Below are positions 1,025 to 37,929 of a stretch of DNA of 64,000 nt, in pieces. Each line of letters opens with the position of its first letter. Positions within the stretch are counted from its first letter, which is position 1. The stretch is taken from positions 28,402,437 to 28,466,436 of the forward strand of contig NC_092672.1 of the NCBI RefSeq assembly GCF_964355755.1, in the 5' to 3' direction. A model generated the notes under the pieces. That model searched no databases, had not been told where the DNA came from, and saw nothing but the letters and a program-made list of their open reading frames with translations. This DNA is from Antedon mediterranea (taxonomy: Eukaryota; Animalia; Echinodermata). Position numbers and translations under genes: made by a program.

Positions 1025-2689
1025 TGACTAAATGGAAAATGTTAAATATTTGTTTATCAATTATTAGAAAAAAATTTCACATTGCAAAATCCGAATAATG
1101 AAAGAATTTTTATGGATCAGAAAAAAAACAAAATACCATGAATGGGATGACAGTGGATGTTCAATATATTACAAATGATTTAACGTAAAGAATTATACAG
1201 ATAGTTAATATAAAACATTTTTCGAAAAACAAAATCTACCTTTTAAAGTACATACATAATTTAAAACAACATTAAATATCTAGTAACAAACTCAATACCA
1301 TTTTTAATAGTAGCTGTACTGAGAAGTAATAGGTGTAATTTTTGAGTAAGTAAACTTACATGTTCATATTTCACAGACGTCCCAACTCTCTCTCGAAAAG
1401 TGTTGGCATTTTCCGACTATTGGGTATATCATGCTCTTCTGCTAAATGTCATTCCTTCCGACATTTTGGGTAAACCGAAGAATTATCTCGATATGTATAC
1501 ATTGTGAATAAACTAGATAGTGATGAAATAATAGAAAATATACTAAAATCGACCTTTGATTATTCACTATTATAGATGTATTTTTAAACTTTTATAGCGC
1601 CCCCATGTATTATACCTTAATTTATCTTATGAAGACGTCAAGTATTAACAATTTCGTTCCCGATAATTTCAATTACAATTGACGTAGACCCAACGCAAGC
1701 AAATTGACCAATGACAAGTGACTGTTCAAATTATCCGTTGATTGTGATTAGTCAACTCGCTTACGTCATTGCGTTGTATCTCCTCATAAAAAACCTGGAA
1801 TCGCTATTGATCATTTACATGTTCACCCACAAAAATGTGTCTTAATTCAATTAGGTTTGTACGACCATACCAAGTAATACACCATACCGTGTCGGTCTCC
1901 CATGAGTTAACCAAAGTCGGCTTCATGACGAATTTTATTATCACGTGACCCATTTTAAAAAAACCCATAAGAACGGAATCTTTATTAAATGGTATCGTGG
2001 TAGGCCTATGCCGTTCTCTATCTTAACGACATAATCCCATCGTCAATTTCGTTTTCAATATTAGGACAAAGGTTTATTTGCATTTTACGAGAATCAGTGT
2101 CGATAACAGACGGAGATCTGTACTATCTTTTGTAAATGGCAAACCCGTGTTTTGTAAAAGACTACTGTATTTTTGTTAACAGAAAACCTATAGTTTTTTC
2201 TTTTATTAAAAACATTATGGGTTTGAAACGATTGATATTAAACTAAAGTTCTTGAATAATATAAATCAAATCTTTGTCATATATGTTGTTTTTATCACTA
2301 AGTATCTTATCTGTTAATATTTGATCTACCATAGCATAAAATGACGCAGTTTCTCAATAGACAATTTCCAGATTACACAGTACAAAACTTGTGTTTGTAT
2401 AGTCTAGGGAGTCACGGACAGACAATAAAACTACAGTGACGTTTTCTAAATCTCGATTGATTTCTAAGTGAGTATAACACAGTGAATAAGTCAAGTTAAA
2501 CCAAGTCTTTGTTAAGGTGGATGTTTTTACCTGAAAGAAATACTAGGAAAAAACAATTTGTATATCGTTCACGTCTAAGCCCGGTGAAAGCCAAACAATG
2601 GCGTCAAAAACCCATAGAAACGGGACTAATAAAGGAATGTACAGTGCTGCACAGGCTGACGGTGACGAAATCAGCAGGATGAACGGGCA

Positions 2690-3630
2690 GCGATTTTTTT
2701 TTTCGTACATAAGTTGGGGACCCCCTCATGAAACGTCACAAAATAAACATGAATAATTCATCTGTTAAATTTTCTTGTTCCGTGTGCACCCAAGCGTATA
2801 GCAACAAGAAGTGATTACACAAGTGCGGTACGATTCTAGGCCTATTCCCGCTGTTGTTGCGGCGTGCGATTTCATAGAAGAATAGCGGCGTTTTGTGTGG
2901 ATTGTCGAAATAATCAGCCTTTAGTTTATGGTGTTTTTAATATAATTTATTACTAAAGAATTACGTGTTAAAACTATAGTTTCTTCTATTAATACTATTA
3001 GGTCTAATTATTAGTCTCTAAACCCATGTCTATTCTAGTAGTAGTGGCTGTGTGGGTGTGTGTGACGTGTGTGTGTGTTAGGTATGACCAAAGATAGTTA
3101 CACTTACTATCTTTGGTATGACACAATCCGAGTAATAAGTCAGCAAAATTAAACAATAAACATTACACAAAAATACATTTTTTATTCTCGTGGGTCAAAT
3201 CTTCCCATCTCATGTGTTCATATACGCGCATTTTTAAAGTTCCTTTGAGTACATGCATATTGTTTGATAATAAAATAGCAGAATTAAAAAAATACAGTAC
3301 ACAAATTATACACATTCTTTATTCTTGTGGGTCTAAGCTTTCTTTGGGCTATGTCCAATGAATTACTACTTAGTTTAATGTCTTGCCTAGCTGTCGATTA
3401 GCCTCGACACATTTTGTGTGAAGAAGAGTGCGCGAGGGCAATCACGTGAATTGACTTGGAATCCTAGGCCTGCTGTAGAAAGTATCGTATCGCAGTTGTG
3501 TAATCACTTCTTGTTGCTATACGCTTGGGTGCACACGGAACAACAAATTTAACTGATGAATTATTCATGTTTATTTTGTGACGTTTCATGAAGGGGTCAC
3601 CCCCAACTTATGTACGAAAAAAAAAATCGC
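2690..3630. mobile_element. Mutator/MULE-like MITE, copy 1
   Basis: About 130 bp TIRs (GCGATTTTTTTTTTCGTACATAAGTTGGGG...) and a 9-bp TSD GAACGGGCA at 2681-2689 and 3631-3639. Confidence 0.88.
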
Positions 3631-4670
3631 GAACGGGCAAACAGTAAACAAAGAACGTAGTGTAGTGAAGCCAATCTTTTTGAAGGCTGATCAAATACCA
3701 ACAGGAAAAAGCTTTTTCAAAGATGAAGACCTATGTATAGCCCTACTAAAAATAATTGCTGCAGAAAGTATAATCGGTGTTCAAAAAATACGGAACCTAT
3801 GGCGAATTTATCTAAATAATAGAAATGATAGAGTGAAACTAATTACGAATGGACTAAACATTAGGAATTGTAATATTACAATTCATGATAAAAATCCTTA
3901 TTTGGCATACAACAACATGGAAACAACGAGAATAGTCATAAAGGATATACCATTATCGGTTGCTGACGTAGAGATTGCTAGCAAGTTGAAAGCGCTAGGA
4001 TGCAAACCAATAGGAGATGTTACAAGGCTAAAAATAAGGGTTAATGGTCAATTAACCAGCTGGCTAAACGGTGACAGAGCTGTCGTTGTAGAAAAGCTAA
4101 AATCGCCAATACCAAGACAGATAATAATAAATGGTTTTAGAGCACGGGCTTTTCATGACGGTCCGGAAGTGAAATGCAACAAAATTAATGTACAAGGACT
4201 GGGCATTTAGCTTTTCAATGCAAAGCTGATATAATCTGTTTCAAGTGTCATTTACCAGGGCATACTAGGGACAGATGTAATGTTGAAGCGCATAATGTTT
4301 TTAACTTTGAAAACCCAAAAAATAACTAGATTTAATTCGTCACTATGACGAATTATAGGTTATATGCATTGATAATTAAAATAAAGATAATTTATTTTTA
4401 AAAGATATTTTGATTCATTGATTTTCTCAGATTCTTTAAATAATATATAATATATGATAGGACCTTGCTAACGCGAATACAATAGCCGGTATCACAATCC
4501 GATCAAAGATCCCTCTGCGTATAATGTCATAAACCACATTTGCTGTTACATAATAATAAAGACATAAGTTATTTTTTATCTAGATTTCATTATAAATCAT
4601 GTGTATAATATATACACTAAGAAATAAATTTGAACAAACAATACGGATAATAAAAAAAAAAATTATTTCG

Positions 4671-4745
4671 TTTCCCAAGGTGAGACTCGATCTCGGTACC
4701 TTGAGTGCCATAGACACGAGCACACACCACCGAGCCATACACAAC
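4671..4745 (-). promoter_or_regulatory. tRNA-derived Pol III box A/B cassette in family A (present in all seven copies)
   Basis: Minus strand TGGCTCGGTGG (A box) ... AGGTACCGAGATCGAGTCTC (degenerate B box/T arm). Confidence 0.55.
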
Positions 4746-5742
4746 TGACTAAAAATTGTAGAAAAATTCCTCCGTGTATTTACTATGCAGTAACCACTTT
4801 GGTGCAGATAGATTATTACATACCGCAATGAATTATAATTTTTTACTATGATGACATCTCTAAAAATGTACAAAAATGATGCACTGTCAAACTATATACT
4901 TTTAACTTTAATATATGAACTTTTGAAGGAAGAAAGTTAATGTTAAGTTTGTTATTTTGGCCTAAGAAAATGTCATAATTTGTTTGATTGTCGAAATGAA
5001 TTTTTTTAAATTTAATATGCAATTAATTATGGCTTAATCAACTTTTGTTCCCTTAGTTTAATAATAAATCATACATAAGATACATACACTTCAAGAAAAT
5101 TAAATAAAAAATATGTGTTCCCGAGCATTCTGACGATCTATATTAATTTTAAAATTTAGCATATTTTCACCATTTTGTTAACTTACACGTGCGTAGCCTG
5201 TCACTTTTGACGTGCTCGTATAAGGCAATTACGCGTTGAAAAGTGAATAAAATATGATGATATTATTAAAGAAAGGTTGTACAACCGAAATCGGACAAAA
5301 AGAGTGCACATTAACGTATAACGCGCAGTGCGCGTGCAAAAATCTGCGCACTCATGGCAATTTTTTAAACGCTTAAAATTGCCTGAAACGTACTCTAATT
5401 TCATCGAAAATAAATTTTGACAATTTTGAACATTTTAAGCGCGCGTACGCAAGCGTTATATGCGCTACGCACGTAATTGTATTGCCATATGATGAAATAT
5501 GACCTGAAATTTATGAGTACCAAATTTTGTTTAATTGTGATTCATGCTTGTGAAGATATGATTACAAACGTGATTTCGTAAAATCGCGCGTAGACCGCGT
5601 GATTTTTGATTACGCATCGTGAAAATATAACCACATCGATTCCTGGCCATAAGGAATATACTCTGAAAAATTGACTTAGATAGATGAAACTGATATCAAG
5701 ATAATTCACGGACAAAATAGTGCTAAGGAAAGAATAAATAAA

Positions 5743-7214
5743 CTAGATTTAATTCGTCACTATGACGAATTATAGGTTATATGCATTGATTTAAATAAAG
5801 ATAATTGATTTTTAAAAGATATTTTGATTCATTGATTTTCTCAGATTCTTTAATTATTTATAATATATGATAGGACCTTGGTAACGCGAATACAATAGCC
5901 GGTATCACAATCCGATCAAAGATCCCTCTGCGTATAATGTCATAAACCACATTTGCTGTTACATAATAATAAAGACATAAGTTATTTTTTATCTAGATTT
6001 CATTATAAATCATGTGTATAATATATACACTACGAAATAAATTTGAACAAACAATACGGATAATAAAAAAAAAATCTTATTTCGTTTCCCAAGGTGAGAC
6101 TCGATCTCGGTACCTTGAGTGCCATAGACACGAGCACACACCACCGAGCCATACACAACTGACTAAAATTTGTAGAAAAATTCCTCCGTGTATTTACTAT
6201 GCAGTAACCACTTTGGTGCAGATAGATTATTACATACCGCAATGAATTATAATTTTTTACTATGATGACATCTCTAAAAATGTACAACAATGATGCACTG
6301 TCAAACTATATACTTTTAACTTTAATATATGAACTTTTGAAGGAAGAAAGTTAATGTTAAGTTTGTTATTTTGGCCTAAGAAAATGTCATAATTTGTTTG
6401 ATTGTCGAAATGAATTTTTTTTAATTTAATATGCAATTAATTATGGCTTAATCAACTTTTGTTCCCTTAGTTTAATAATAAATCATACATAAGATACATA
6501 CACTTCAAGAAAATGAAATAAAAAATATGTGTTCCCGAGCATTCTGACGATCTATATTAATTTTAAAATTTAGCATATTTTCACCATTTTGTTAACTTAC
6601 ACGTGCGTAGCCTGTCACTTTTGACGTGCTCGTATAAGGCAATTTCGCGTTGAAAAGTGAATAAAATATGATGATATTATTAAAGAAAGGTTGTACAACC
6701 GAAATCGGACAAAAAGAGTGCGCATTAACGTATAACGCGCAGTGCGCGTGCAGAAATCTGCGCACTCATGGCAATTTTTTAAACGCTTAAAAATGCCTGA
6801 AACGTACTCTAATTTCATCGAAAATAAATTTTGACAATTTTGAACATTTGAAGCGCGCGTACGCAAGCGTTATATGCGCTACGCACGTAAGTGTATTGCC
6901 ATATGATGAAATATGACCTGAAATTTATGAGTACCAAATTTTGTTTAATTGTGATTCATGCTTGTGAAGATATGATTACAAACGTGATTTCGTAAAATCG
7001 CGCGTAGACCACGTAATTTTTGATTGCGCATCGTGAAAATATAACCACATCGATTCCTGGCCATAAGGAATACACTCTGAAAAATTGACTTAGATAGATG
7101 AAACTGATGCCAAATTAATTCACGGACAAAATAGTGCTAAGGAAAGAATAAATAAAGAAATAAATAAAGATTTTGACAGAATCAAGAGGTTATATGCATG
7201 AATGCATATAACCT
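5743..7214 (-). mobile_element. HINE family A element A2, uninterrupted (1472 bp)
   Basis: Complete CTAG/hairpin/subTIR end, body, microsatellite and cap with a GA loop. Confidence 0.88.
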
Positions 7215-10200
7215 AACTAGATCTGAACTCGTCACTTGAGGACGAGTTTGGTTATCCGCCCGCAACAAAACGTATCTTGCGCATTCAAGTACTTTTCAGT
7301 CGTGACTTTTCCAAAAAAATTAGCCTATTCAAAATTAAAACTGCCCCTTAAGTGTAATAACCAAACAAATCCTTTTATTTAATTGTTTTCCCGTTATGAG
7401 ATTTGAACCCGGTACCTCTGATACCAAAGTCGGTTGCACTACACATCGAGCCATATGAGCACCTGCTGAAGAAAATCCGAAGAAAGAGTCCTCGTTCATT
7501 CGGTATGTCGTGAATCCCCTCGATGCAAGTTGATTATTACATATCAAACTTAAATCATAAATTTTACTATGATGAAATCTTCACAAATTATAAACAGTGA
7601 CATATTAGCAAAGTGCATACTTTCAAGTTTTATATATCAACATGTAAAGAAAAAAGATAAACGTTATGTTTATTGTTTTGCTCTTTGAATATGTTATTGT
7701 TTGTTTGATGATAACAATTTCGAAAATTATATTTAATATGCAAATAATGTAGCCATCAAACACGTTTTAACATTCAACACTATAATAAATCAGACCTACG
7801 ATTCATGGACTGTAATCAAATAAAATAAAAAATGGGGGTAACCTTGCATTCTGATGAACTGTATCACTTTTAAAAGTAGACATATTTTGCAACATTTTCA
7901 CTATTTGTTGACGTTTTCGTGCGCAACCAGTCATGTTTAACGTGCTCGTAGAACGCCATTTCAAGTTGAAAAGTGAATAAAATAACGTAAAATTGTTAAC
8001 CTAAGTTTGAAAAACACATTTTATGTAAAAGAAAAGCTTATACGCGTTCCCTGCGCCGTGCGCGCGTAAAAATGTGCGCACCAGTGGTAATTTTTAAACC
8101 CTTAAAATGACCTGAAACGTGCTCTAATTTAATCAGAAATTGATTTGAAGCATTTTAAAATTTCAAACGCCGTTTACGCACGCACTTTCTAATGTTACAA
8201 AATTCGGTAGGGATAAAAAAGTTAACAATTAATGTAAAGCAAACGTGGCTGAAAATTACGTTAAAAAATATTTATCTGTTTCAAAGTTATGATCAATTTA
8301 AGATTTTCAGAAAATCGCCCGTAACTTACGATACGCGCCTCTGACAGCGTCCAAAAGCTTGGCTGCACATCTTCAGTTAAATGTCTATATGTTGACCAAG
8401 TTACAACATGTTATGTTCACGCGTTGCAGAGAAACAGCGTGTACAAATTTGGAGCATTTTAAAATTTCAAACGCAATTTACGCGCAAACTTTCTAGTCTC
8501 CAAAAATGTGCTAAAGATTGAAAAAGTTAGCCATTGATATGAAGAAAACGTGGCTGCAAGTTACGTTAAAAAATATTTATCGGTTTCGAAGTTATGATCA
8601 ATTTAAGATTTTCAGAAAATCGCGCGTAACTTACGCTACGCGGCTCTGACAGCGTCCAAAAGCTTGGCTGCACATCTTCAGTTAAATGTCTAAAGGTTTA
8701 CCAAGTTACAACATGTTATGTTAACACGTTGCAGAGAAACGTCGCGTACAAAAAGTGGCGGAAAGAAAGAAGAATAACTAGATCTGAACTCGTCACTTGA
8801 GGACGAGTTTGGTTATCCGCCCGCAACAAAACATATCTTGCGCATTCAAGTACTTTTCAGTTGTGACTTTTCCAAAAAGTAGCCTATTGAAAATTAAAAC
8901 TGCCTTTTCAGTGTAATAACCAAACAAATCCTTTTATTTAATTGTTTTCCCGTGATGAGATTTGAACCCGGTACCTCTGATACCAAAGTCGGTTGTACTA
9001 CACATCGAGCCATATGAGCACCTGCTGAAAAAAATCCGAAGAAAGAGTCCTCGTTCATTCGGTATGTCTTGAATCCCGTCGATGCAAGTTGATTATTACA
9101 TATCAAACTTAAATCATAAATATTACTATGATGAAATCTTCACAAATTTTAAACAGTGACATATTACCAAAGTGCATACTTTCAAGTTTTATATATTAAC
9201 ATGTAAAGAAAAAAGATAAACGTTATGTTTATTGTTTTGCTCTTTGAATATGTTATTGTTTGTTTGATGATAAAAATTTCGAAAATTATATTTAATATGC
9301 AAATAATGTAGCCATCAAACACGTTTTAACATTAAAAATTATTATAAATCAGATCTATGATTCATAAACTGCAAGAAATTAAAATAAAAAATAGGGGTAA
9401 CCTTGCATTCTGATGAACTGTATTGTTTTTAAAAGTAGACATATTTTGCAACATTTTCACAATTTTTTGAGCTTTTTCTGCGCAACCAGTCATGTTTAAC
9501 GTGCTCGTAGAACGCCATTTCAAGTTGAATAGTGAATAAAATAACGTAAAACTGTCAACCAAAGATTTAAAAACATAAATCGTGTAAAAGAAATGCTCAT
9601 TCGCGTTCCCTGCGCCATGCGCGCGTAAAAATGTGCGCACCAGTGGCAATTTTTTAAACGCTTAAAATGACCTGAATCGTGCTCTAATTTAATCAGAAAT
9701 TAATTTCAAGCATTTTAAAATTTCAAACGCCGTTTACGCACGCACTTTCGAATGTTACAAAATTCGTTAGGGTTAAAAAAGTTAACAATTGATGTGAAGA
9801 AAACGTGGCTGAAAATTACGTTAAAAAATATTTATCTGTTTCAAAGTTATGATCAATTTAAGATTTTCAGAAAATCGCGCGTAACTTACGATACGCGCCT
9901 CTGACCGCGTCCAAAAGCTTGGCTGCACAATTTCAGTTAGATGTCAATATGTTGACCAAGTTACAACATGTTATGTTAACGCGTTGCAGAGAAACAGCGT
10001 GTACAAATTTGGAGAATTTTAAAATTTCAAACGCAATTTACGCAAAAATTTTCTAGTCTCCAAAAATTTGCTAGGGATCAAAAAAGTTAGCCATTGATGT
10101 GAAGAAAACGTGGCTGAAAACTTCGTTAAAAAATATTTATCGGTTTCGAAGTTATGACCGATTTAAGATTTTCAGAAAATCGCGCGTAACTTACGCTACG

Positions 10201-11753
10201 CGTATCTGACAGCGTCCAAAAGCTTGGCTGCACAACTTCAGTTAAATGTCTAAATGTTGACCAAGTTACAACATGTTATGTTAACACGTTGAAGAGAAAC
10301 GTCGCGAACAAAAGTGGCGGAAAGAAAGAAGAATAACTAGATTTAATTCGTCACTATGACGAATTATAGGTTATATGCATTGATAATAAAAATAAAGATA
10401 ATTTATTTTTAAAAGATATTCTGATTCATTGATTTTCTCAGATTCTTTAAATAATATATAATATATGATAGGACCTTGCTAACGCGAATACAATAGCCGG
10501 TATCACAATCCGATCAAAGATCCCTCTGCGTATAATGTCATAAACCACATTTGCTGTTACATAATAATGAAGACATAAGTTATTTTTTATCTAGATTTCA
10601 TTATAAATCATGTGTATAATATATACACTAAGAAATAAATTTGAACAAACAATACGGATAATAAAAAAAAAATTTATTTCGTTTCCCAAGGTGAGACTCG
10701 ATCTCGGTACCTTGAGTGCCATAGACACGAGCACACACCACCGAGCCATACACAACTGACTAAAAATTGTAGAAAAATTCCTCCGTGTATGTACTATGCA
10801 GTAACCACTTTGGTGCAGATAGATTATTACATACCGCAATGAATTATAATTTTTTACTATGATGACATCTCTAAAAATGTACAAAAATGATGCACTGTCA
10901 AACTATATACTTTTAACTTTAATATATGAAATTTTGAAGGAAGAAAGTTAATGTTAAGTTTGTTATTTTGGCCTAAGAAAATGTCATAATTTGTTTGATT
11001 GTCGAAATGAATTTTTTTAAATTTAATATGCAATTAATTATGGCTTAATCAACTTTTGTTCCCTTAGTTTAATAATAAATCATACATAAGATACATACAC
11101 TTCAAGAAAATTAAATAAAAAATATGTGTTCCCGAGCATTCTGACGATCTATATTAATTTTAAAATTTAGCATATTTTCACCATTTTGTTAACTTACACG
11201 TGCGTAGCCTGTCACTTTTGACGTGCTCGTATAAGGCAATTACGCGTTGAAAAGTGAATAAAATATAATGATATTATTAAAGAAAGGTTGTACAACCGAA
11301 ATCGGACAAAAAGAGTGCGCATTAACGTATAACGCGCAGTGCGCGTGCAAAAATCTGCGCACTCATGGCAATTTTTTAAACGCTTAAAATTGCCTGAAAC
11401 GTACTCTAATTTCATCGAAAATAAATTTTGACAATTTTGAACATTTTAAGCGCGCGTACGCAAGCGTTATATGCGCTACGCACGTAATTGTATTGCCATA
11501 TGATGAAATATGACCTGAAATTTATGAGTACCAAATTTTGTTTAATTGTGATTCATGCTTGTGAAGATATGATTACAAACGTGATTTCGTAAAATCGCGC
11601 GTAGACCGCGTAATTTTTGATTACGCATCGTGAAAATATAACCACATCGATTCCTGGCCATAAGGAATATACTCTGAAAAATTGACTTAGATAGATGAAA
11701 CTGATATCAAGATAATTCACGGACAAAATAGTGCTAAGGAAAGAATAAATAAA

Positions 11754-14709
11754 CTAGATTTAATTCGTCACTATGACGAATTATAGGTTATATGCATTGA
11801 TTTAAATAAAGATAATTGATTTTTAAAAGATATATTGATTGATTGATTTTCTCAGAATCTTTAATTATTTATAATATATGATAGGACCTTGCTAACGCGA
11901 ACACCATAGCCGGTATCACAATCCGATCAAAGATCCATATGCGTATAATGTCATAAACCACATTTGTTGTTACATAATAATAAAGACATAAGTAAATTTT
12001 TATCTAGATTTCATTATAAATCATGTGTATAATCTATACACTAAGAAATAAATTTGAACAAACAATACGGATAATAAAAAAAAAATCTTATTTCGTTTCC
12101 CAAGGTGAGACTCGATCTCGGTACCTTGAATGCCATAGACACGAGCACAGACCACCGAGCCGTACACAACTGACTAAAAGTTGTAGAAAAATTCCTCCGT
12201 GTATTTACTATGCAGTAACCACTTTGATGCAAATAGATTATTACATACTGAAATGAATTATAATTTTTTACTATGATGACATCTTTAAAATGTATACAAA
12301 TGATGCACTGTCAAACTACATACTTTTAACTTTAATATATGAATTTTTGAAGGAAGAAAGTTAATGTTAAGTTTGTTATTTTGGCCTAAGAAAATGTCAT
12401 AATTTGTTTGATTGTCGAAATTATGTTTTTTTAATTTAATATGCAATTAATGATGACTTAATCAACTTTTGTTCTCTTAATTTGATAATAAATCATACAT
12501 ATGATACATACACTTCAAGAAAATGAAATAAAAAATAGGTGTTCCCCTGCATTCTGACGATATATATTAATTTTAAAATTTAGCATATTTTCACCATTTT
12601 GTTAACTTATACGTGCGTAGCCAGTCACTTTTGACGTGCTCGTATAACGCAATTTCGAGTTGAAACCTGAATCAAATATGATGATATTATTAAAGAAAGA
12701 TTGTAAAACAGAAATCGGGCAAAAAGAGTGCGCATTAACGTTTAACGCGCAGTGCGCGTGCAAAAATCTGCGCACTCATGGCAATTTTTTAAACGCTTAA
12801 AATTGCCTGAAACGTACTCTAATTTCATCGAAAATAAATTTTGACAATTTTGAACATTTTAAGCGCGCGTACGCAAGCGTTATATGCGCTACGCACGTAA
12901 TTTAATTGCCATATGATGAAATATGACCTGAAATTTATGAGTACCAAATTTTGTTTAATTGTGATTCATGCTTGTGAAGATATGATTACAAACGTGATTT
13001 CGTAAAATCGCGCGTAGACCGCGTAATTTTTGATTACGCATCGTGAAAATATAACCACATCGATTCCTGGCCATAAGGAATATACTCTGAAAACTTGACT
13101 TAGCTAGATGAAACTGATGCCAAGATAATGCACGGACAAAATAGTGCTAAGGAAAGAATAAATAAATAAATAAATAAATAAACTAGATTTAATTCGTCAC
13201 TATGACGAATTATAGGTTATATGCATTGATAATTAAAATAAAGATAATTTATTTTTAAAAGATATTTTGATTCATTGATTTTCTCAGATTCTTTAAATAA
13301 TATATAATATATGATAGGACCTTGCTAACGCGAATACAATAGCCGGTATCACAATCCGATCAAAGATCCCTCTGCGTATAATGTCATAAACCACATTTGC
13401 TGTTACATAATAATAAAGACATAAGTTATTTTTTATCTAGATTTCATTATAAATCATGTGTATAATATATACACTAAGAAATAAATTTGAACAAACAATA
13501 CGGATAATAAAAAAAAAAAATTATTTCGTTTCCCAAGGTGAGACTCGATCTCGGTACCTTGAGTGCCATAGACACGAGCACACACCACCGAGCCAAACAT
13601 AACTGACTAAAAATTGTAGAAAAATTCCTCCATGTATTTACTATGCAGTAACCACTTTGGTGCAGATAGATTATTACATACCGCAATGAATTATAATTTT
13701 TTACTATGATGACATCTCTAAAAATGTACAAAAATGATGCACTGTCAAACTATATACTTTTAACTTTAATATATGAACTTTTGAAGGAAGAAAGTTAATG
13801 TTAAGTTTGTTATTTTTGCCTAAGAAAATGTCATAATTTGTTTGATTGTCGAAATGAATTTTTTTAAATTTAATATGCAATTAATTATGGCTTAATCAAC
13901 TTTTGTTCCCTTAGTTTAATAATAAATCATACATAAGATACATACACTTCAAGAAAATGAAATAAAAAATATGTGTTCCCGAGCATTCTGACGATCTATA
14001 TTAATTTTAAAATTTAGCATATTTTCACCATTTTGTTAACTTACACGTGCGTAGCCTGTCACTTTTGACGTGCTCGTATAAGGCAATTACGCGTTGAAAA
14101 GTGAATAAAATATGATGATATTATTAAAGAAAGGTTGTACAACCGAAATCGGACAAAAAGAGTGCGCATTAACGTATAACGCGCAGTGCGCGTGCAAAAA
14201 TCTGCGCACTCATGGAAATTTTTTAAACGCTTAAAATTGCCTGAAACGTACTCTAATTTCATCGAAAATAAATTTTGACAATTTTGAACATTTTAAGCGC
14301 GCGTACGCAAGCGTTATATGCGCTACGCACGTAATTGTATTGCCATATGATGAAATATGACCTGAAATTTATGAGTACCAAATTTTGTTTAATTGTGATT
14401 CATGCTTGTGAAGATATGATTACAAACGTGATTTCGTAAAATCGCGCGTAGACCGCGTAATTTTTGATTACGCATCGTGAAAATATAACCACATCGATTC
14501 CTGGCCATAAGGAATATACTCTGAAAAATTGACTTAGATAGATGAAACTGATATCAAGATAATTCACGGACAAAATAGTGCTAAGGAAAGAATAAATAAA
14601 TAAATAAAGATTTTGACAGAATCAAGAGGTTATATGCATGATAATGCATATAACCTAATAAAGATTTTGACAGAATCAAGAGGTTATATGCATATCATGC
14701 ATATAACCT
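11754..14709 (-). mobile_element. HINE family A element A4, divergent subfamily (body 11754-13182, cap about 14657-14709)
   Basis: Shares diagnostic SNPs with A7; the predicted cap has the ATC loop variant. Confidence 0.8.
13183..14656 (-). mobile_element. HINE family A element A5, uninterrupted, deepest layer (1474 bp)
   Basis: Complete termini with a GATA-loop cap. Confidence 0.88.
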
Positions 14710-14765
14710 AATAAAGATTTTGACAGAATCAAGAGGTTATATGCATGATAATGCATATAACCTAA

Positions 14766-16381
14766 CTAGATCTAAACTCGTCACTTGAGGACGAGTTTGG
14801 TTATCCGCCCGCAACAAAACGTATCTTGCGTACTCAAGTACTTCTAAGTTATGACTTTTCCCAAAAAAAGTAGGCTATTCAAATTTAAAACTGCCCTTTC
14901 AGTGTAATAACCAAATAAACCCTTTTAATTAATTGTTTTCTCGTGATGGGATTCGAACCCGGTACCTCTGATACCAAAATCGGTTGCACTACACATCGAG
15001 CCATATGAGCTCCTGCTGAAGAAAATCCGAAGAAAAAGTCCTCGTTCATTAGGTATGTCGTGAACCCCCTCGATGCAAGTTGATTATTACATAATGAACT
15101 TAAATCATAATTTTTACTATGATGAAATCTTCACAAATTTTAAACAGTTACATATTATGAAAGTGCATACTTTCTAGTTTTATATATTAACATGTAAAGA
15201 AAAAAGATAAGCGTTATGTTTATTGTTTTGCTCTTTGAATATGTTTATGTTTGTTTGATGATAATTATTTCAAAAATTACATTTAATATGCAAATAATGT
15301 AGCCTTCAAACACTTTTTAACATTCAAGACTATAATAAATCACACCTATGATTCATACACTGCAAGAAAATAAAATAAAAAATGGGGGTAACCTTACATT
15401 CTGATGAACTGTTTCATTTTTAAAAGTAGACATATTTTGGAACATTTTCACAATTTGTTGACGTTTTCGTGCGCAACCTGTCATGTTTAACGTGCTCGTA
15501 GAACGCCATTTCAAGTTGAAAAGTGAATAAAATAACGTAAAATTGTTAACCGAAGATTTAAAAACACAAATCGTGTAAAAGAAATGCTCAAACGTATTCC
15601 CTGCGCCGTGCGCGCGTAAAAATATGCGCACCAGTGGCAATTTTTTAAACGCTTAAAATGACCTGAATCGTGCTCTAATTTAATCAGAAATTGATTTGAA
15701 GCATTTTAAAATTTCAAACGCCATTTACGCGCGCACTTTCTAATGTTACAAATTGCGGTAGCGTTAAAAAGTTAACTATTGATGTGAAGCAAACGTGGCT
15801 GAAAATGACGTTAAAAAATATTCATTTGTTTCGAAGTTATAACCAATTTAAGATTTTCAGAAAATCACGCGTAACTTACGCTACGCGGCTCTGACATCGT
15901 CAAAAAGCTTGGCTGGAAAACTTCAGTAAAATGTCTAAATGCTGAACAAGTTACAACATATTATGTTTACACGTTGAAGAGAAACAGCGTGCACAAAATA
16001 AGAAGAGTAAAATATTTCAAACGCAATTTACGCGAAAACTTTCTAATCTCCAAAAATTTGTTAAACATTCTAAAAGTTAGCCATTGATGTGAAGAAAACG
16101 TGGCTGAAAATTTCGTTAAAAAATATTTATCGGTTTCGAAGTTATGACCGATTTAAGATTTTCAGAAAATCGCGCGTAACTTACGCTACGCGGATCTGAC
16201 ATTGTCAAAAAGCTTGGCAGTACATCTTCAGTTAAATGTCTATATGTTGACGAAGTTACAACATGTTATGTTAACACGTTAAAGAGAAAACGCGTGCACA
16301 AAATCCGAGAAAGAAAGAAGAATAATAAAAAAAAAAAGTAACACTACAATAACAAAGGTTATCCGCTTGAGGCGGATAACC
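14766..16381 (-). mobile_element. HINE family B element B3, uninterrupted (1616 bp)
   Basis: Complete termini with the intact GAAGAATAATAAAA tract and cap. Confidence 0.88.
14941..15013 (-). promoter_or_regulatory. tRNA-derived Pol III cassette in family B (also about 7391-7463 and 8950-9022)
   Basis: Minus strand TGGCTCGATGTG ... AGGTACCGGGTTCGAATCCC, a canonical B box with tRNA-like spacing. Confidence 0.7.
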
Positions 16382-16499
16382 AATAAAAAAAAAAAAGAAA
16401 CACTACAATAACAAAGGTTATCCGCTTGAGGCGGATAACCAATAAAAAAAAAGAAACACTACAATTCCAAGGGCTTATCCGCTTGAGGCGGATAACCAA

Positions 16500-19455
16500 C
16501 TAGATTTAATTCGTCACTATGACGAATTATAGGTTATATGCATTGATTTAAATAAAGATAATTGATTTTTAAAAGATATTTTGATTCATTGATTTTCTCA
16601 GATTCTTTAATTATTTATAATATATGATAGGACCTTGCTAACGCGAATACAATAGCCGGTATCACAATCCGATCAAAGATCCCTCTGCGTATAATGTCAT
16701 AAACCACATTTGCTGTTACATAATAATAAAGACATAAGTTATTTTTTATCTAGATTTCATTATAAATCATGTGTATAATATATACACTAAGAAGTAAATT
16801 TGAACAAACAATACGGATAATAAAAAAAAAATCTTATTTCGTTTCCCAAGGTGAGACTCGATCTCGGTACCTTGAGTGCCATAGACACGAGCACACACCA
16901 CCGAGCCATACACAACTGACTAAAAATTGTAGAAAAATTCCTCCGTGTATTTACTATGCAGTAACCACTTTGGTGCAGATAGATTATTACATACCGCAAT
17001 GAATTATAATTTTTTACTATGATGACATCTCTAAAAATGTACAAAAAGGATGCACTGTCAAACTATATACTTTTAACTTTAATATATGAACTTTTGAAGG
17101 AAGAAAGTTAATGTTAAGTTTGTTATTTTGGCCTAAGAAAATGTCATAATTTGTTTGATTGTCGAAATGAATTTTTTTTAATTTAATATGCAATTAATTA
17201 TGGCTTAATCAACTTTTGTTCCCTTAGTTTAATAATAAATCATACATAAGATACATACACTTCAAGAAAATGAAATAAAAAATATGTGTTCCCGAGCATT
17301 CTGACGATCTATATTAATTTTAAAATTTAGCATATTTTCACCATTTTGTTAACTTACACGTGCGTAGCCTGTCACTTTTGACGTGCTCGTATAAGGCAAT
17401 TACGCGTTGAAAAGTGAATAAAATATGATGATATTATTAAAGAAAGGTTGTACAACCGAAATCGGACAAAAAGAGTGCGCATTAACGTATAACGCGCAGT
17501 GCGCGTGCAAAAATCTGCGCACTCATGGCAATTTTTTAAACGCTTAAAATTGCCTGAAACGTACTCTAATTTCATCGAAAATAAATTTTGACAATTTTGA
17601 ACATTTTAAGCGCGCGTACGCAAGCGTTATATGCGCTACGCACGTAATTGTATTGCCATATGATGAAATATGACCTGAAATTTATGAGTACCAAATTTTG
17701 TTTAATTGTGATTCATGCTTGTGAAGATGTGATTACAAACGTGATTTCGTAAAATCGCGCGTAGACCGCGTAATTTTTGATTACGCATCGTGAAAATATA
17801 ACCACATCGATTCCTGGCCATAAGGAATATACTCTGAAAAATTGACTTAGATAGATGAAACTGATATCAAGATAATTCACGGACAAAATAGTGCTAAGGA
17901 AAGAATAAATAAATAAACTAGATTTAATTCGTCACTATGACGAATTATAGGTTATATGCATTGATTTAAATAAAGATAATTGATTTTTAAAAGATATATT
18001 GATTGATTGATTTTCTCAGAATCTTTAATTATTTATAATATATGATAGGGCGTGACCTGGCCTTGCTAACGCGACCACCATAGCCGGTATCACAATTCGA
18101 TCAAAGATCCATATGCGTATAATGTCATAAACCACATTTGTTGTTACATAATAATAAAGACACAAGTTAATTGATTTCATTATAAATCATGTGTATAATC
18201 TATACACTAAGAAATAAATTTGAACAAACAATAAGGATATTAAAAAAACAAAATCTTATTTCGTTTCCCAAGGTGAGACTCGATCTCGGTACCTTGAATG
18301 CCATAGACACGAGCACAGACCATCGAGCCATACACCACTGACTAAAAGTTGTAGAAAAATTCCTCCGTGTATTTACTATGCAGTAACCACTTTGATGCAA
18401 ATAGATTATTACATACCGAAATGAATTATAATTTTTTACTATGATGACATCTTTAAAATGTAAACAAATGATGCACTGTCAAACTACATACTTTTAACTT
18501 TAATATATGAACTTTTGAAGGAAGAAAGTTAATGTTAAGTTTGTTATTTTGGCCTAAGAAAATGTCATAATTTGTTTGATTGTCGAAATTATTTTTTTTA
18601 AATTTAATATGCAATTAATGATGACTTAATCAACTTTGGTTCTCTTAATTTGATAATAAATCATACATATGATACATACACTTCAAGAAAATGAAATAAA
18701 AAATAGGTGTTCCCCTGCATTCTGACGATATATATTAATTTTAAAATTTAGCATATCTTCACCATTTTGTTAACTTATACGTGCGTAGCCAGTCATTTTT
18801 GACGTGCTCGTATAACGCAATTCCGAGTTGAAACCTGAATCAAATATGATGATATTATTAAAGAAAGATTGTAAAACAGAAATCGGGCAAAAAGAATGCG
18901 CATTAACGTATAACGCGCAGTGCGCGTGCAAAAATTTGCGCACTCATGGCAATTTTTTAAACGCTTAAAATTGCCTGAAACGTACTCTAATTTCATCGAA
19001 AATAAATTTTAACAATTTTGAACATTTTAAGCGCGCGTACGCAAGCGTTATATGCGCTACGCACGTAATTGTATTGCCATATGATGAAATATGACCTGAA
19101 ATTTATGAGTACCAAATTTTGTTTAATTGTGATTCATGCTTGTGAAGATATGATTACAAACGTGATTTCGTAAAATCGCGCGTAGACCGCGTAAATTTTG
19201 ATTACGCATCGTGAAAATATAACCACATCGATTCCTGGCCATAAGGAATATACTCTGAAAACTTGACTTAGCTAGATGAAACTGATGCCAAGATAATGCA
19301 CGGACAAAATAGTGCTAAGGAAAGAATAAATAAATAAATAAATAAATAAATAAAGATTTTGACAGAATCAAGAGGTTATATGCATATCATGCATATAACC
19401 TAATAAAGATTTTGACAGAATCAAGAGGTTATATGCATGATAATGCATATAACCT
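16500..19455 (-). mobile_element. HINE family A element A6 (body 16500-17917, cap about 19402-19455)
   Basis: Family A termini; contains A7. Confidence 0.8.
17918..19401 (-). mobile_element. HINE family A element A7, uninterrupted, divergent subfamily (1484 bp)
   Basis: Complete termini; ATC-loop cap directly attached; shares SNPs with A4. Confidence 0.88.
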
Positions 19456-20078
19456 AATAAAGATTTTGACAGAATCAAGAGGTTATATGCATGATAATGC
19501 ATATAACCTAATAATGCTAACGATAACCACTACGGGAAAAGAGCTACGTACGGTACAATTTGATACAAAAACACATGATGAAGTGTTAGTATTGATGAAA
19601 GTAGTGAATCATCAGATGATGAAAATGCGCAGAAAGAAACAAGTGTGATCACTATAGAACAACACACAAACCAAAATGAGCAGGAAGATGATGACAGAGA
19701 GGAGCAGAGAGAAGAGCAGGAAGTTGACGAAAGAGAGGAGGAGGAAGTTGAAGAAGGAGAGGAACAAGAAGTACCGGGAAGAAAGAACCAGAAAGCTGAA
19801 GAAAGAGAGGAGCAGGAAGTTGGGGAAGGAGAGGAGCATGAACAGAAGAAGGTAACTGACTACTTTGAAAAAAGTATACAAAAAACTAAAAGTGTTAGCA
19901 CAAACAAGAAAGCAGCGAGAGATCTGAAGGAACAGTCCGGAAATGAAGGCAGGACAGAAGTAAAAACAAAAAGTATTGAAAAAAGAAGTTTAAGAAAGAG
20001 AAACAAAAACAAGTAATTTAATCTTAATAATATGTATTCTAAATATTGTAATTTCCCTAGGAAATCTAATCTAATCTT

Positions 20079-23000
20079 ATGAATTTACATTGTATAACAC
20101 TAAGCGTTAGAGGAGCTAGAAATATAAATAAGCAACATAAGCTATTCCAATGGGTAAAAGATCAAAAAGCGGATATATGTCTGCTTCAGGAAACCCATCT
20201 AACAAATGAGATTATTAATAAATCAAACTTTGTTTGGGAAAGGTGAAGCGATCCATAGTATAGGTAATTCACATAGTAGAGGAGTGTCGATACTATTACG
20301 AAAAGGTCTTGAATGCAAAATTGTTAAAAAGTTAACTGATATTGATGGAAGATATATATTTCTTAATTTAATGATAAATGAAAAGGAATTGGACATTATA
20401 AATATTTATGCTCCTAATGAAAGCAAAAATAGAAGTGCATACTTTAGGACCATACACAAATGTTACAATGACTTTGATGGAGGGAAGGGTAATTCTATCA
20501 TTCTAGGTGGAGATCTGAATTGCATCATGAATAGTGACATTGACCAAAAAGGTAGCGCAAATAGGTCTGATAAATCTGTTTTTACGATTAAAAACCTAAT
20601 GAAAAATTTAAATTTAAATGATATTTGGAGATCCAAAAACATGAATAAGCGACAATTTACGTTGCGTAAGAGATTTAACAACATTTTCCGTAGGCTGGAT
20701 TACTGGTTAATATCAGAAGATCTCTTTTCAAATGGAGATGTTTTAGCCTGTGACATTCGTCCAGCTATTCTCACAGATCACCAGGCGGTATCAATTAAAA
20801 TAGATTTGCATGAAAAAATACGCGGTCCTGGTTTATGGATGTTCAACAATAGCTTTCTGAAAGATGAATTAATGCGTTAAATGAAAGTTATAATTCTCAA
20901 GAATTATCCTTTTCGCAAAAACGAGGTGTAATCACCCTTTTGTTCAAGGATGGAGAAAGAGAAAATTTGAATAATTGGCGTCCCATTACCCTCTTAAACA
21001 CCGATTAAACAATTCTTGCACATGTATTAAGTAACAGACTTAAAATGGTTATTAAATCAATAGTAAGTTCAGACCAAAAAGGTTATATAAAAGGCCGTTT
21101 CGCTGGTGAAAACATTCGGTTAATAGAAGACCTGCTTTATTTTACAGAGTGTAATGATATCGAAGGGGCAATAATTACCGTAGATTTTAAGAAGGCTTTT
21201 GACTCTATTAGTAGAGATTTTATGTTCAATGTTCTAGAAAAGTTTAACTTTGGAATGTTTTTTTGTAACTGGATAAAAGTATTATACAATAACGTTGAAA
21301 GTGTCACAGTTAACAATGGTTGGGTTTCAAACAATTTTAAAATGGAAAGAGGTATTAGACAAGGTTGTCCTCTATCTGCTCTGTTATTCATTTTAGTGGT
21401 TGAAGTAATGGCATCTAGAATAAGAAACAAAGATGACTATAAGGGTATTAAACTTCCAAATAATGAAAATAACATAGAAGCTAGAATAAGCCAATTAGCA
21501 GATGACACTGTTTTGTATGTTGGTAATGACAAAAGTATTAAGTCAGCAGTCAGTGTAATTGAACGTTTTTGTGAAGTATCTGGAATGACACTAAATAAAA
21601 AAAAACCAATGCTTTTTGGATTAGTAAATGGAAGAACAGAATAGATAGATCTTTAGAATTAAATTGGGTAAAACACCCGATCAAAATTGTAGGCATATAT
21701 GTAGGGTATAATACAGAAGAATGTACCAGAAAAAACTGGGATGTTAAATTAATAGAGCTAGAAAAGACTTTAAAACAATGGAATGCTAAAAATCTCTCAA
21801 TTTTTGGTAGAATAATAATCCTGAAAAATCTTGCACTATCTAAATTAACATATGCTGCAAATATCACTGATGTTCCAAAATATGTATATACACAAGTTAC
21901 AAATCTAATATATAATTTTATTTGGAACAATAAAAGGGAAAAGATAAAAAGAAAAACTCTAATTGGTGATGTTGAGATGGGAGGCATTAAAATGCCTGAT
22001 TTTACTCTTCATGTTAACGCACTCATGTGTGGCTGGTTAAAAAGAATTATGAATGATGATGGTGCTAAATGGAAAAATATTCCAATGTATTATATTAAAA
22101 AAATATGTGATGTTAATGTTTTACTTAATATGTCATGTTATAACATTATTGATGTTAATTCTGATAAAATTCCACTGTTTTACAAAAATATGATAAAGCC
22201 AACATAAATTATAACAGAATCTCTAAAAAAAAAACTGAAACTTATAACGATATAATGAATGAGCAACTGTGGGGAAACCACTATGTTAAACTAAAAAAAA
22301 AAATCGCTTTTCTACAAGCATTGGATTGACAGTGGCATTATCAGTATTAAAGACATTGTTAATAAGAACACTTTTTTATCATCAAACGAAATACAATGTA
22401 AAACAAACTGGTTAAATGAGTATTTGTGCATTATTAAGGCAATACCAATTCAATGGAAACGTATTATTAAGGAGGTAGATATTTTCAATTGTGATGATAA
22501 TGATGAATTAGTTGGGACCAAGTATGAGATTAATACTACCAAACTAATATACTCATGGTTTGTGAAAGAATATTTCATTATTCCAATGTCACAACTAAAA
22601 TGGGAAGAGTACTTCAATGATAACAACATTGATTGGAAAACTTCTTGGTTACGGAAAGTATGTAAAATGAAAGATAAGAAACTAGCACAATTCAATTATA
22701 AGATGTTACATAGAATACTGCCTACCAACAAACGGCTGTATCAGTGGAAAGTTAAGGAAACACAAACGTGTGACAAATGTGGAGAAATTGAAAATGAAAA
22801 TCATTTGTTTTTTAGTTGTAGATTTATTCAGAAATATTGGAGGAAAATGCTTAGTATCTTTGTAAGTTTAAATCACAATAATATATCATTTAAACAATTA
22901 GTACTAGGAACGGGAGATAAGCTAATAGATTATATTTACACTTTTGCAGCATTTACTATTTATAGAATAAAAATGTTATCTGCACAGTGGGTAAATCTTC

Positions 23001-23110
23001 ATGGAATTCATTTAAAAGCAATATGTTATATAACATTGAGTGTGAAACATATAACAATAAAGAAACAAGTATAGAAAAATGGGTAGCTTTAAGAAATACG
23101 ATTATGATAA
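20079..23110 (+). pseudogene. Tx1 ORF2 (APE endonuclease, reverse transcriptase, zf-RVT), frameshifted, with an internal deletion near 20880
   Basis: Motifs LSVRG, LLQETH, NIYAPN, GGDLN, RLDYW, TDH, WRPITLLN, DFKKAFD, GIRQGCPLS, QLADDT and CDKC...HLFFSC. Confidence 0.92.
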
Positions 23111-31015: not shown

Positions 31016-31684
31016 TGCTGTATTTTTTTTTTACATCTAGGTGGTATTTATTTGATTATACATATTACCATATTATACCCCAAATAAAGATGCCTCCCCT
31101 CCACTAAAAACCCTTTTGAACAATAAATGCCCGGGGCGTTTAATCGGATACACATGGCAAGTTACTTCTAGCATTCTGAAAAAAACTGTTGAGCTTGACG
31201 TTTCTATTAAAATGTTCTTGGGGACAGCAATAACTAGTACTTGAAATTGAAACAATTTAAAGTATCAGTTATTGCATAACATTACTGTCTAAGGATAAGT
31301 TATGTAGAGATATGTTTTTTTGTTTGAAACATTAGTAATAGTATTTCTGTACATGTTTTAACCACATTTTCTATTACAATGAATGTAAATATGTATATTT
31401 CGAACAATTTGATACCAAACTTAAGTTTCTACGACCAGTACTTACAGAGATATGAAGATGCCATGATATGTGGGTCAAAATAATTTTTGACTAAAATGTC
31501 CCATTTGATTGAATATGAAAGCATGCCTTCTGAACATTTTGATTTTGTTCATATAACCCTTGACCCTGACCCTTTGACCTTTTGTAACATTTTTAAAAAT
31601 GTGCACCAAATAACAAAATGTTTATTTCAAACAATTTAAGACCAAATTCAAGTGTCTAGGATCAGTAGTTACGGAGATGTTTTT

Positions 31685-34609: not shown

Positions 34610-35278
34610 TAAGCAAAATAAGCAGCTTAAGCAGTCACTTCACAGGGAGAAGAAAATTTGCAAATTAGCAACTAATCAGCGCAACGTTTCAGCTTACAAT
34701 GCTACAGCTTAAGCAGTAATCTCATAGGGAACAGATTCGTTGCAAATTAGCAACTAATCAGCGCAACGTTTCAGCTTACAATGCTACAGCTTAAGCAGTA
34801 ATCTCATAGGGAACAGATTCGTTGCAAATTAGCAACTAATCAGCGCAACGTTTCAGCTTACAATGCTACAGCTTAAGCAGTAATCTCATAGGGAACAGAT
34901 TCGTTGCAAATTACCAACTAATCAGCGCAACGTTTCAGCTTACAATGCTACAGCTTAAGCAGTAATCTCATAGGGAACAGATTCGTTGCAAATTACCAAC
35001 TAATCAGCGCAAAGTTTCAGCTTACAATGCTACAGCTTAAGCAGTAATCTCATAGGGAACAGATTCGTTGCAAATTACCAACTAATCAGCACAACGTTGC
35101 AGCTTACAATGTTACAGCTTAAGCAGTAATCTCATAGGGAACAGATTCGTTGCAAATTACCAACTAATCAGCGCAACATTGCAGCTTACAATGCTTAAGT
35201 AAAATAAGCAGCTTAAGCAGAGACTTCACAGGGAAAGGATTCGTTGCTAATAAGCAACTAATCAGCACAACATAGCAA
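34610..35278 (+). repeat. 82-bp minisatellite, about 8 copies
   Basis: aagcagtaatctcatagggaacagattcgttgcaaatt... recurs at 34711, 34793, 34875 and onward; outer units diverged. Confidence 0.95.
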
Positions 35279-36232: not shown

Positions 36233-36433
36233 AAATAAACAGGTTAAAACCAAATATAAACAGGTTAAAACCAAATATAAACAGGTTAAAACCAAATATA
36301 AACAGGTTAAAACAAATATAGACAGGTTAAAACCAAATATAGACAGGTTAAAACCAAATATAGACAGGTTAAAACCAAATATAAACAGGTTAAAACAAAA
36401 TATAAACAGGTTAAAACCAAATATAAACAGGTT
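36233..36433 (+). repeat. 22-bp minisatellite, about 9 copies
   Basis: aaacaggttaaaaccaaatata repeated. Confidence 0.95.
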
Positions 36434-37795: not shown

Positions 37796-37929
37796 CCGGA
37801 GGAAATGCGTCCCATACGTAGTTCAGTTGTCACAAATCAAAATCTACGATATTATATCCTTAGGTCCATGATTATACTCTAAATTGTTAGACCACAAAAA
37901 AAATAGTCTTAGTCCATGGTTAAACCTAC

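What the first reader, a model, noticed from the sequence alone, without database searches (positions are those of the whole stretch)
4326..19509. Self-targeting nested stack of ten Helentron/HINE-like elements that parses as balanced parentheses
Seen: the order on the + strand is A A a B B A A A a a a B b b b A A a a a (capital = body starting CTAG, lower case = roughly 55-bp hairpin cap). That gives 7 A bodies with 7 A caps and 3 B bodies with 3 B caps. It closes exactly as (A1 (A2)(B1 (B2 (A3 (A4 (A5)))(B3)))(A6 (A7))), six levels deep with no orphan end. Known: a subTIR with adjacent inverted repeat, microsatellite, 3' hairpin and TT target describes non-autonomous Helentrons (DINE-1/HINE). 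Their arrays are usually explained by tandem or rolling-circle amplification. Inference: this array grew by repeated insertion of whole elements into a landing pad that each element carries, with two families using each other's pad. It acts as a self-extending integration stack and records the order of events.
Basis: partly seen in the sequence, partly recalled or inferred. Interest (0 to 1): 0.93.

Follow-up and report, generated by a model that had tools for sequence, protein, structure and literature searches.

The report
Self-nesting stack of rolling-circle transposons
Ten small protein-less transposons of two related families sit inside one another, six levels deep, at a single spot in an older retrotransposon, likely because each newcomer landed just behind the front-end hairpin of an earlier copy, an orderly and extreme form of a self-insertion habit already proposed for this transposon type.

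Summary
The 20 ends occur in the stated order and close as balanced brackets, six deep. The elements read on the minus strand: the 'cap' is the 5' subTIR/IR hairpin and CTAG is the 3' end, the anatomy of non-autonomous HLE2/HINE elements.

Four results support nesting by insertion. Copies differ 0.5-9% and children do not copy their neighbours. Cap variants match body subfamilies across intervening elements (48 of 5040 permutations; 6 of 24 for the four split A elements). Six of 6 parents were hit at the first (A/T)TTA|TT behind their hairpin. Public contigs show the host LINE without the stack, joined exactly at the predicted empty site.

Not shown: an autonomous partner, genome-wide nesting frequency, and whether sub-blocks arrived pre-assembled. 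Many caps elsewhere run into unrelated flanks. Self-insertion near the 5' end was already proposed for Fusarium FoHeli1; I found no paper describing a balanced two-family stack (7 searches). This scan noted similar stacks in at least six windows of other genomes (unchecked notes). Verdict: new variant of a known kind.

The parts
4326..19511 (-). whole stack = element A1 with all children; one insertion site in the host LINE
   Evidence: empty site
4326..5742 (-). A1 body (3' CTAG, stem-loop and 3' subTIR at 4326-4369; rest of pad at the other end)
19458..19511 (-). A1 5' cap (subTIR/IR hairpin, 4-nt loop)
5743..7216 (-). A2, intact, child of A1; 12 private substitutions and a unique 2-nt-loop cap
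7217..8777 (-). B1 body, child of A1 (cross-family)
16443..16499 (-). B1 5' cap
8778..10336 (-). B2 body, child of B1
16384..16442 (-). B2 5' cap
10337..11753 (-). A3 body, child of B2 (cross-family)
14712..14765 (-). A3 5' cap (4-nt loop)
11754..13182 (-). A4 body, child of A3; divergent subfamily shared with A7
   Evidence: 45 substitutions shared only by A4 and A7
14659..14711 (-). A4 5' cap (3-nt loop, as in intact A7)
13183..14658 (-). A5, intact, innermost element (level 6), child of A4
14766..16383 (-). B3, intact, child of B2; internal 294-bp duplication at 85%
16500..17917 (-). A6 body, child of A1
19404..19457 (-). A6 5' cap (4-nt loop)
17918..19403 (-). A7, intact, child of A6; same subfamily, cap loop and 7-unit pad as A4
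3630..4325 (+). host LINE, left part: ORF1 with a zinc-knuckle region (start approximate)
   Evidence: weak Pfam zf-CCHC hit below cutoff, E 0.0012
19512..23074 (+). host LINE, right part: acidic ORF1 tail, then broken ORF2 with endonuclease, reverse transcriptase and zf-RVT pieces
   Evidence: RVT_1 E 3e-25, zf-RVT E 1e-8, Exo_endo_phos E 6e-4 (below cutoff)

Best explanation
The block is ten non-coding HINE-type transposons nested six deep at one site of a LINE, likely built by repeated insertion of whole elements at the first (A/T)TTA|TT behind the 5' hairpin of a resident copy. Shown: the anatomy, the balanced nesting, the absence of a target duplication beyond the shared TT, the empty LINE site, the fixed insertion point, the single orientation, and that the copies are distinct sequences. 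Inferred: a Rep-helicase supplied by an autonomous HLE2 elsewhere moves both families; each insertion splits the parent's cap from its body and rebuilds TTA|TT at the newcomer's 5' junction, so the same spot stays open; siblings therefore arrived in the order A2, B1, A6 in A1 and A3, B3 in B2. Also inferred, at about even odds: the resident hairpin itself, by binding the transposase or opening the DNA next to it, picks the first site over equivalent sites further along the pad.
For: Balanced parse, P 0.00076 (0.0076 by runs), and clean un-nesting into ten full elements. A4 and A7 share 45 diagnostic substitutions; their predicted caps are the only 2 of 7 with the 3-nt loop, and the rejoined A4 pad has 7 units like intact A7; full concordance occurs in 48 of 5040 permutations. 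Child-parent differences are 12-70 of about 1465 in A and 98-152 of about 1615 in B; for 4 of 5 A children the nearest copy is not the parent, and A6's nearest, its parent A1, still differs at 12 sites. All 3 head-to-tail junctions join different families. Six of 6 parents were hit at the first (A/T)TTATT behind the hairpin although each holds 9-18 such sites on both strands; P 1.2e-4 for any pad site, 1.2e-7 for the exact site. 10 of 10 elements share one orientation. One contig each in runs X9 and X1 (two studies) runs from the right LINE flank into letters matching window 4297-4322 with no element between. FoHeli1/2 use a similar TNAT target and carry stacked 5' ends ascribed to self-insertion (PMC5148889).
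Against: Restricted to the 4 split A elements, the pairing test gives only 6 of 24; B caps do not discriminate. The P values for site use are post hoc on a window chosen for its oddity. One search listed no cap-to-cap joint of the window's own form in 4 runs (joints under 2% of depth are not listed), and the one cap-to-cap joint shown (X9, depth 163) has three pad units rather than one, which fits a later pad site or later slippage. In the 14 of 43 loose-end rows shown, 23 contigs in X7 and 20 in X9 leave the cap into mixed flanks (agreement 0.52-0.85), so many copies are dispersed. The outermost A1 is no more diverged than the innermost A5 (2 versus 5 private substitutions), so divergence does not confirm the order. 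No autonomous partner was found (no genome; 0 hits).
Confidence: 0.8

Rival explanations
1. Nested insertion is right, but targeting is plain preference for T-rich (TTTA)n sequence; the hairpin plays no part and first-site use here is chance or a by-product of how terminal T are handled.
For: HINEs are known to prefer T-rich sites (PMC4067079, PMC7492417, passages). The outermost site is an ordinary ATTA|TT in a LINE with no cap nearby. In X7 the consensus of 11 contigs leaving the cap begins with an (AATA)n-like run, and one cap-to-cap joint has three pad units.
Against: Sites 1 to n-1 of an A pad share the same immediate context, yet 4 of 4 A parents with 3, 3, 7 and 4 sites and 2 of 2 B parents with 2 sites each used the first (1 in about 1000 if equal). 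The B pad is not a (TTTA)n tract. There are 502 TTATT/AATAA sites in the 48.8 kb outside the stack and only one carries an A or B element.
Confidence: 0.35
2. Parts of the stack were assembled at other loci and moved here as composites by read-through of inner ends, so the nesting records ancestry but not events at this site.
For: End bypass and composite Helitrons are described (PMC5148889, passages). A1, A3 and A5 differ by only 8-13 bases whatever their depth. A cap-to-cap joint at several times the depth of unique-flank contigs (163 versus 3-25 in X9) could be a mobile double-capped form. An earlier unchecked note (e1-7304716) reports a nested pile polymorphic as one block.
Against: The published model predicts extra 5' ends over a single 3' end; here 10 caps match 10 bodies with no orphan. 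Moving the whole 15 kb would need nine inner ends to be bypassed.
Confidence: 0.2
3. The block is a tandem or rolling-circle array in which bodies and caps were duplicated separately by concatemer formation or unequal crossing-over at the AATAA microhomology, and the balance is accidental.
For: Caps do form 54-59 bp tandem runs, and tandem Helitron arrays with multiple 5' ends are described (Xiong et al. 2016 as summarised in PMC12628747, passages).
Against: Adjacent bodies differ by 26-70 bases in A and 95 in B while non-adjacent ones differ by 8-13; cap triplets are internally mixed in the order nesting predicts; all head-to-tail junctions are cross-family; balance P is under 0.008.
Confidence: 0.03
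4. The structure is an assembly artefact in a high-copy repeat.
For: Family A is very abundant in the best-matching sample (9349 contigs laid from X7), and no read or contig spanning the block was available.
Against: All ten copies are distinct sequences; junctions are base-exact; cap variants track body subfamilies; the flanks rejoin to the empty LINE seen in independent contigs.
Confidence: 0.02

Closest known systems
HINE / DINE-1, non-autonomous Helentrons (HLE2); Thomas et al. 2014 PMC4067079 and oyster Cg_HINE PMC7492417 (passages read)
   Same: 5' subTIR with adjacent inverted repeat, microsatellite after it, 3' subTIR followed by a stem-loop, no coding capacity, T-rich target, no target duplication, internal tandem repeat (family B).
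   Different: The passages read describe dispersed copies and internal satellite arrays, not insertion into their own pad. No autonomous partner could be shown here. The 3' end is CTAG, the motif usually cited for HLE1.
FoHeli1/2 of Fusarium oxysporum with multiple 5' termini; Chellapan et al. 2016 PMC5148889 (passages and section 6 read), PMC13342296 (passages read)
   Same: Hairpins at both ends, asymmetric inverted repeats, TNAT target (the paper gives the next base as T in a legend and A in the text), short stacked 5' ends (31-85 nt, up to five in a copy) ascribed to self-insertion.
   Different: There the extra 5' ends sit on one 3' end and the nested precursor is mostly inferred. Here the balanced precursor is present, six deep, with two families using each other's pad and a fixed insertion point.
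Helitron2 of Bao and Jurka 2013, PMC3627910 (passages read)
   Same: 5' inverted repeat 0-2 bp from the end forming a hairpin; 3' inverted repeat about 20-30 bp from the end, upstream of a hairpin (31-33 bp here); 5' T; no target duplication.
   Different: Target there is TTTT|T/C; the group is defined by RepHel phylogeny, which cannot be tested on these non-coding elements.
Transposon dimers by double insertion; McGurk and Barbash 2018 PMC5932611 (passages read)
   Same: Repeated use of one preserved target site by independent copies, giving arrays without rolling-circle amplification.
   Different: Those dimers are side by side and keep the site through a target duplication; Helitrons are not mentioned in the main text (0 occurrences). 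Here the site is carried inside the element and the array grows mostly by nesting.

Membership tests
HINE / non-autonomous HLE2 | 5' subTIR of 11-15 bp within 0-4 nt of the end, pairing with an adjacent inverted repeat | tested here: met
   A: 13-bp stem 2 nt from the end; B: 10-bp stem (11-bp match to the 3' copy); folds of -11.4 to -13.1 kcal/mol
HINE / non-autonomous HLE2 | 3' subTIR, inverted, directly upstream of a 3' stem-loop | tested here: met
   subTIR ends 31 nt (A) or 33 nt (B) from the end; 8-10 bp stem-loop with different stems in A and B
HINE / non-autonomous HLE2 | microsatellite after the 5' hairpin | tested here: met
   A: (TTTA)3-7; B has only a T-run plus ATTATT
HINE / non-autonomous HLE2 | insertion at TT without target duplication | tested here: met
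   rejoined pads match intact pads; empty LINE contigs differ from the joined flanks by nothing but the element plus two T. A 2-nt TT duplication cannot be told apart from element-borne TT.
HINE / non-autonomous HLE2 | no coding capacity | tested here: met
   no stop-to-stop frame of 120 aa or more in 4326-19511
HINE / non-autonomous HLE2 | autonomous Rep-helicase (HLE2 clade) element sharing the subTIRs | not testable with these tools
   no genome held; two metagenome pattern scans gave 0 hits
HINE / non-autonomous HLE2 | rolling-circle transposition through a circular intermediate | not testable with these tools
   only assembled contigs were served, no raw reads
Canonical Helitron (HLE1) | 5'-TC end and A|T target | tested here: not met
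   ends begin TTAGG or TTGG and lie in TTA|TT
Canonical Helitron (HLE1) | 3' hairpin followed by CTRR | tested here: met
   10 of 10 end in stem-loop plus CTAG
FoHeli-type composite with multiple 5' termini | several short 5' ends stacked head to tail | tested here: met
   three triplets of 53-60 bp caps
FoHeli-type composite with multiple 5' termini | extra 5' ends over a single 3' end | tested here: not met
   10 caps, 10 bodies, balanced
Rolling-circle concatemer / satellite array | head-to-tail copies of one unit with nearest neighbours most alike | tested here: not met
   3 of 3 head-to-tail junctions are cross-family; nearest copies are mostly non-adjacent

The most novel reading that the evidence does not exclude
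These HLE2 elements carry their own attachment site: the transposase is steered by a resident element's 5' hairpin to the first TTA|TT behind it, across family lines, and each insertion rebuilds the site. That would be structure-guided target choice in a eukaryotic rolling-circle transposon, giving a self-renewing safe harbour that grows as a last-in-first-out stack, disables the parent rather than host genes, and feeds the multi-5'-end composites known from fungi.
Probability: 0.35. Interest if true: 0.75.

Novelty: new variant of a known kind. Interest (0 to 1): 0.52.

Why it matters
How HLE2/Helentron elements choose targets has, to my knowledge (recalled), not been worked out biochemically. 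This locus gives nine base-exact self-insertion events with a fixed landing point and a verified empty site, so it yields a sharp test: does a resident 5' hairpin direct insertion? It shows in place the nested precursor that was proposed to explain stacked 5' ends in Fusarium. It also shows that a repeat block that looks like a tandem array can grow by insertion alone, which matters for annotating and dating such arrays in animal genomes. It reveals no new element class or host function.

Tried and rejected
Whole-genome census: no genome is held. Metagenome pattern scans for the A 3' end and for a motif shared by A and B: 0 hits each. Laying contigs on intact A7 to see pad and cap junctions: the tool skipped 19314-19420 as repeat, so those junctions were not examined. 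Run X2 gave 0 contigs on the cap plus LINE stretch; this is no evidence of absence. Summed depths were not used as copy numbers. Rfam on 13100-16550: 10 matches at E up to 1, all below gathering score, mostly miRNA models on cap hairpins; rejected as chance hairpin matches. A tRNA-like 75-bp segment in both families: not called by ARAGORN or Rfam; alignment to the window's own tRNA scored 42-48, reached by 0-6 of 300 shuffles; left open. B caps as a pairing test: uninformative. The equal 1618-bp length of the three un-nested B elements is treated as coincidence. Dating by divergence: no gradient with depth. Scan look-ups by place and by sequence: nothing. Papers checked by passage search without finding self-nesting of this kind: PMC13085455, PMC3630058, PMC11417382 (which notes a Xenopus HLE2 with two left termini in direct repeat), PMC12628747 (which mentions shuffled, nested Helitron parts in oyster). 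Supplementary files were not read; those of PMC5148889 (Table S6, Figs S11-S13) and PMC13342296 (Fig. 5) may show balanced nests.
Full report
Observation. I read 3500-20500 and scanned both strands of the window for body and cap motifs. Self-BLAST and a generic scan for CTAG-plus-hairpin ends and long palindromes show no other copy in the window. The string is balanced, depth 6; the probability is 0.00076 given the counts and 0.0076 when the nine runs are shuffled. Removing children leaves ten complete elements, A of 1471-1486 bp and B of 1618 bp.

Anatomy. On the minus strand each element reads TT, a subTIR/inverted-repeat hairpin (13-bp stem in A, 10-bp in B), a short spacer, a T-rich pad, the body, the inverted subTIR, a stem-loop and CTAG. 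This is the layout given for HINE/DINE-1 (PMC4067079, passages), oyster Cg_HINE (PMC7492417, passages) and Helitron2 (PMC3627910, passages). A and B are 70% identical over 703 bp and have different subTIRs, so they are related but separate families under the 11-bp rule of PMC4067079. No frame of 120 aa or more lies in the block.

Insertion or duplication. A copies differ by 8-77 substitutions and B copies by 95-152. Child-parent differences are 26, 12, 69, 70 and 69 in A and 98 and 152 in B, while A1, A3 and A5, which are far apart, differ by 8-13. All three head-to-tail junctions join an A to a B, which a concatemer of one circle cannot give. A4 and A7 share 45 substitutions found in no other copy. 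The parse assigns them the caps at 14659-14711 and inside 17918-19403, the only 2 of 7 with a 3-nt loop; A2, with 12 private changes, has the only 2-nt loop. The rejoined A4 pad has seven units, like intact A7. Full concordance arises in 48 of 5040 permutations; leaving out the three intact elements it is 6 of 24, so this test alone is modest. B caps do not discriminate.

Outer site. The flanks are two halves of one LINE: a zinc-knuckle ORF1 region on the left and an acidic tail plus endonuclease, reverse transcriptase and zf-RVT pieces on the right (the knuckle and endonuclease hits are below Pfam cutoffs). A search of public runs listed 10 holders from 4 studies, all as contigs; X7-X10 are one sample and may be the window's source. 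On 19456-19700, 304, 147, 0 and 2 contigs were laid from X7, X9, X2 and X1. One contig in X9 and one in X1, a different study, run from 19509 into letters of which 26 of the 30 shown match 4297-4322. That is the left flank joined to the right flank with the element and two T removed. The block is thus one insertion site without target duplication beyond the ambiguous TT. Whether these contigs are alleles or other copies of the LINE family cannot be told; the depth in X9 (715 versus 3-25 for unique-flank contigs) points to other copies.

Target rule. All ten sites read (A/T)TTA|TT on the minus strand once siblings are taken into account. Six of 6 parents were hit at the first such site behind their own hairpin, 53-59 nt from the 5' end, though each holds 9-18 such sites on both strands (P 1.2e-4 for any pad site, 1.2e-7 for the exact site; post hoc). 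Nearer weak sites (TGATT in A, GTTATT in B2) were not used. An insertion leaves TTA|TT at its 5' junction and CTAG|TT at its 3' junction; only the first fits the motif, so sibling order is inferred as A2, B1, A6 and A3, B3. All 10 elements share one orientation. Outside the stack, 502 TTATT/AATAA sites in 48.8 kb carry no A or B element apart from the stack itself.

Results against a strict or genome-wide rule. In one search, 14 of 43 loose-end rows were shown; 23 contigs in X7 and 20 in X9 leave the cap into mixed flanks, so many copies are dispersed. No cap-to-cap joint of the window's own form was listed (threshold 2% of depth). The single cap-to-cap joint shown, in X9 at depth 163, has three pad units instead of one. 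(9349, 1687, 81 and 11 contigs from X7, X8, X2, X6) shows that family A is abundant and has relatives in two other coded organisms, but it skipped the pad and cap; it lists one body-end-to-body-start joint in X7 with divergent letters between. Divergence does not rise with nesting depth (A1 2 private substitutions, A5 5), consistent with a fast build or with mixed donors. No autonomous partner was found.

Mechanism. Shown: structure, balance, empty site, fixed landing point, orientation, distinct donors. Inferred from family knowledge: movement by a Rep-helicase of the HLE2 clade, probably through circles as reported for FoHeli1 (PMC5148889). Inferred from this locus: the target is rebuilt after each insertion. 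Least certain: that the resident hairpin guides the choice. I put nested insertion at about 0.9 and the full statement at 0.8; hairpin guidance at about even odds given nesting. Composite transfer of sub-blocks is not excluded.

Comparison. Chellapan et al. (PMC5148889; passages and section 6) report FoHeli copies with repeated 5' ends of 31-85 nt, a TNAT target, and a model in which self-insertion followed by read-out from the outer 5' end gives extra 5' ends over one 3' end. PMC13342296 (passages) finds up to five 5' ends per copy. McGurk and Barbash (PMC5932611, passages) show dimers by repeated use of one site for other transposons. Seven full-text searches (listings seen, eleven papers opened by passage search) turned up no description of a balanced, multi-level, two-family HINE stack; most subscription papers and all supplements were out of view. 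The scan's own unchecked notes report similar nests in other genomes, which suggests a recurring habit of this group rather than a one-off, but I could not test them and do not count them as support.

Verdict. Real and well supported; filed as HINE-type by structure, with the autonomous partner untested; a new variant of known self-insertion. Interest 0.52.

Noticed in passing
window 45097-54116: A second, unrelated array: a unit of about 2.04 kb in roughly three tandem copies (96-99% alike), the first interrupted at about 46418-49417 by a LINE with an 898-aa endonuclease/reverse transcriptase frame. It has a CTAG at the unit boundary but no cap like those of A or B.
   Followed up: partly
window 44955-45028: ARAGORN calls a tRNA-Thr gene just left of that array; it may belong to a repeat.
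   Followed up: no
A elements about 1060-1130 nt and B elements about 1375-1450 nt from the 5' end, minus strand (e.g. window about 13530-13600 and 14935-15010): Both families carry a 75-bp segment with tRNA-like A-box and B-box appearance in the element's sense direction; alignment to the window's tRNA is borderline (0-6 of 300 shuffles reach the score) and Rfam gives no tRNA call.
   Followed up: partly
window 2686-3637, with relatives at 56876-58168 and 60770-60885: A roughly 950-bp element with 150-bp terminal inverted repeats (93%) abuts the 5' end of the host LINE.
   Followed up: no
run X1, contig laid on window 19456-19514: A 1525-nt contig at depth 83 (LINE contig 6.3) holds an A cap at its positions 113-171 and continues into unlike sequence; it may be a repeated host site or a longer relative of family A. 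Its sequence could not be fetched.
   Followed up: no
window 19545 and 19585: The host LINE copy differs from its family in X7, X9 and X1 by a 4-base and a 1-base indel and three substitutions in about 190 bases, which accounts for stop codons right of the insertion; the family looks young and multi-copy.
   Followed up: partly
window 31640-32848, 37844-38215, 43278-43679: An LTR-type reverse transcriptase/RNase H frame, and minus-strand exons of a probable LDL-receptor-repeat gene (Ldl_recept_b hit on the first, none on the second). Tandem arrays of 82, 21 and 42 bp lie at 34623-37796.
   Followed up: no
B1, B2, B3: All three un-nested B elements are exactly 1618 bp although their bodies (1561, 1559, 1558) and caps (57, 59, 60) differ in length; probably coincidence.
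   Followed up: no
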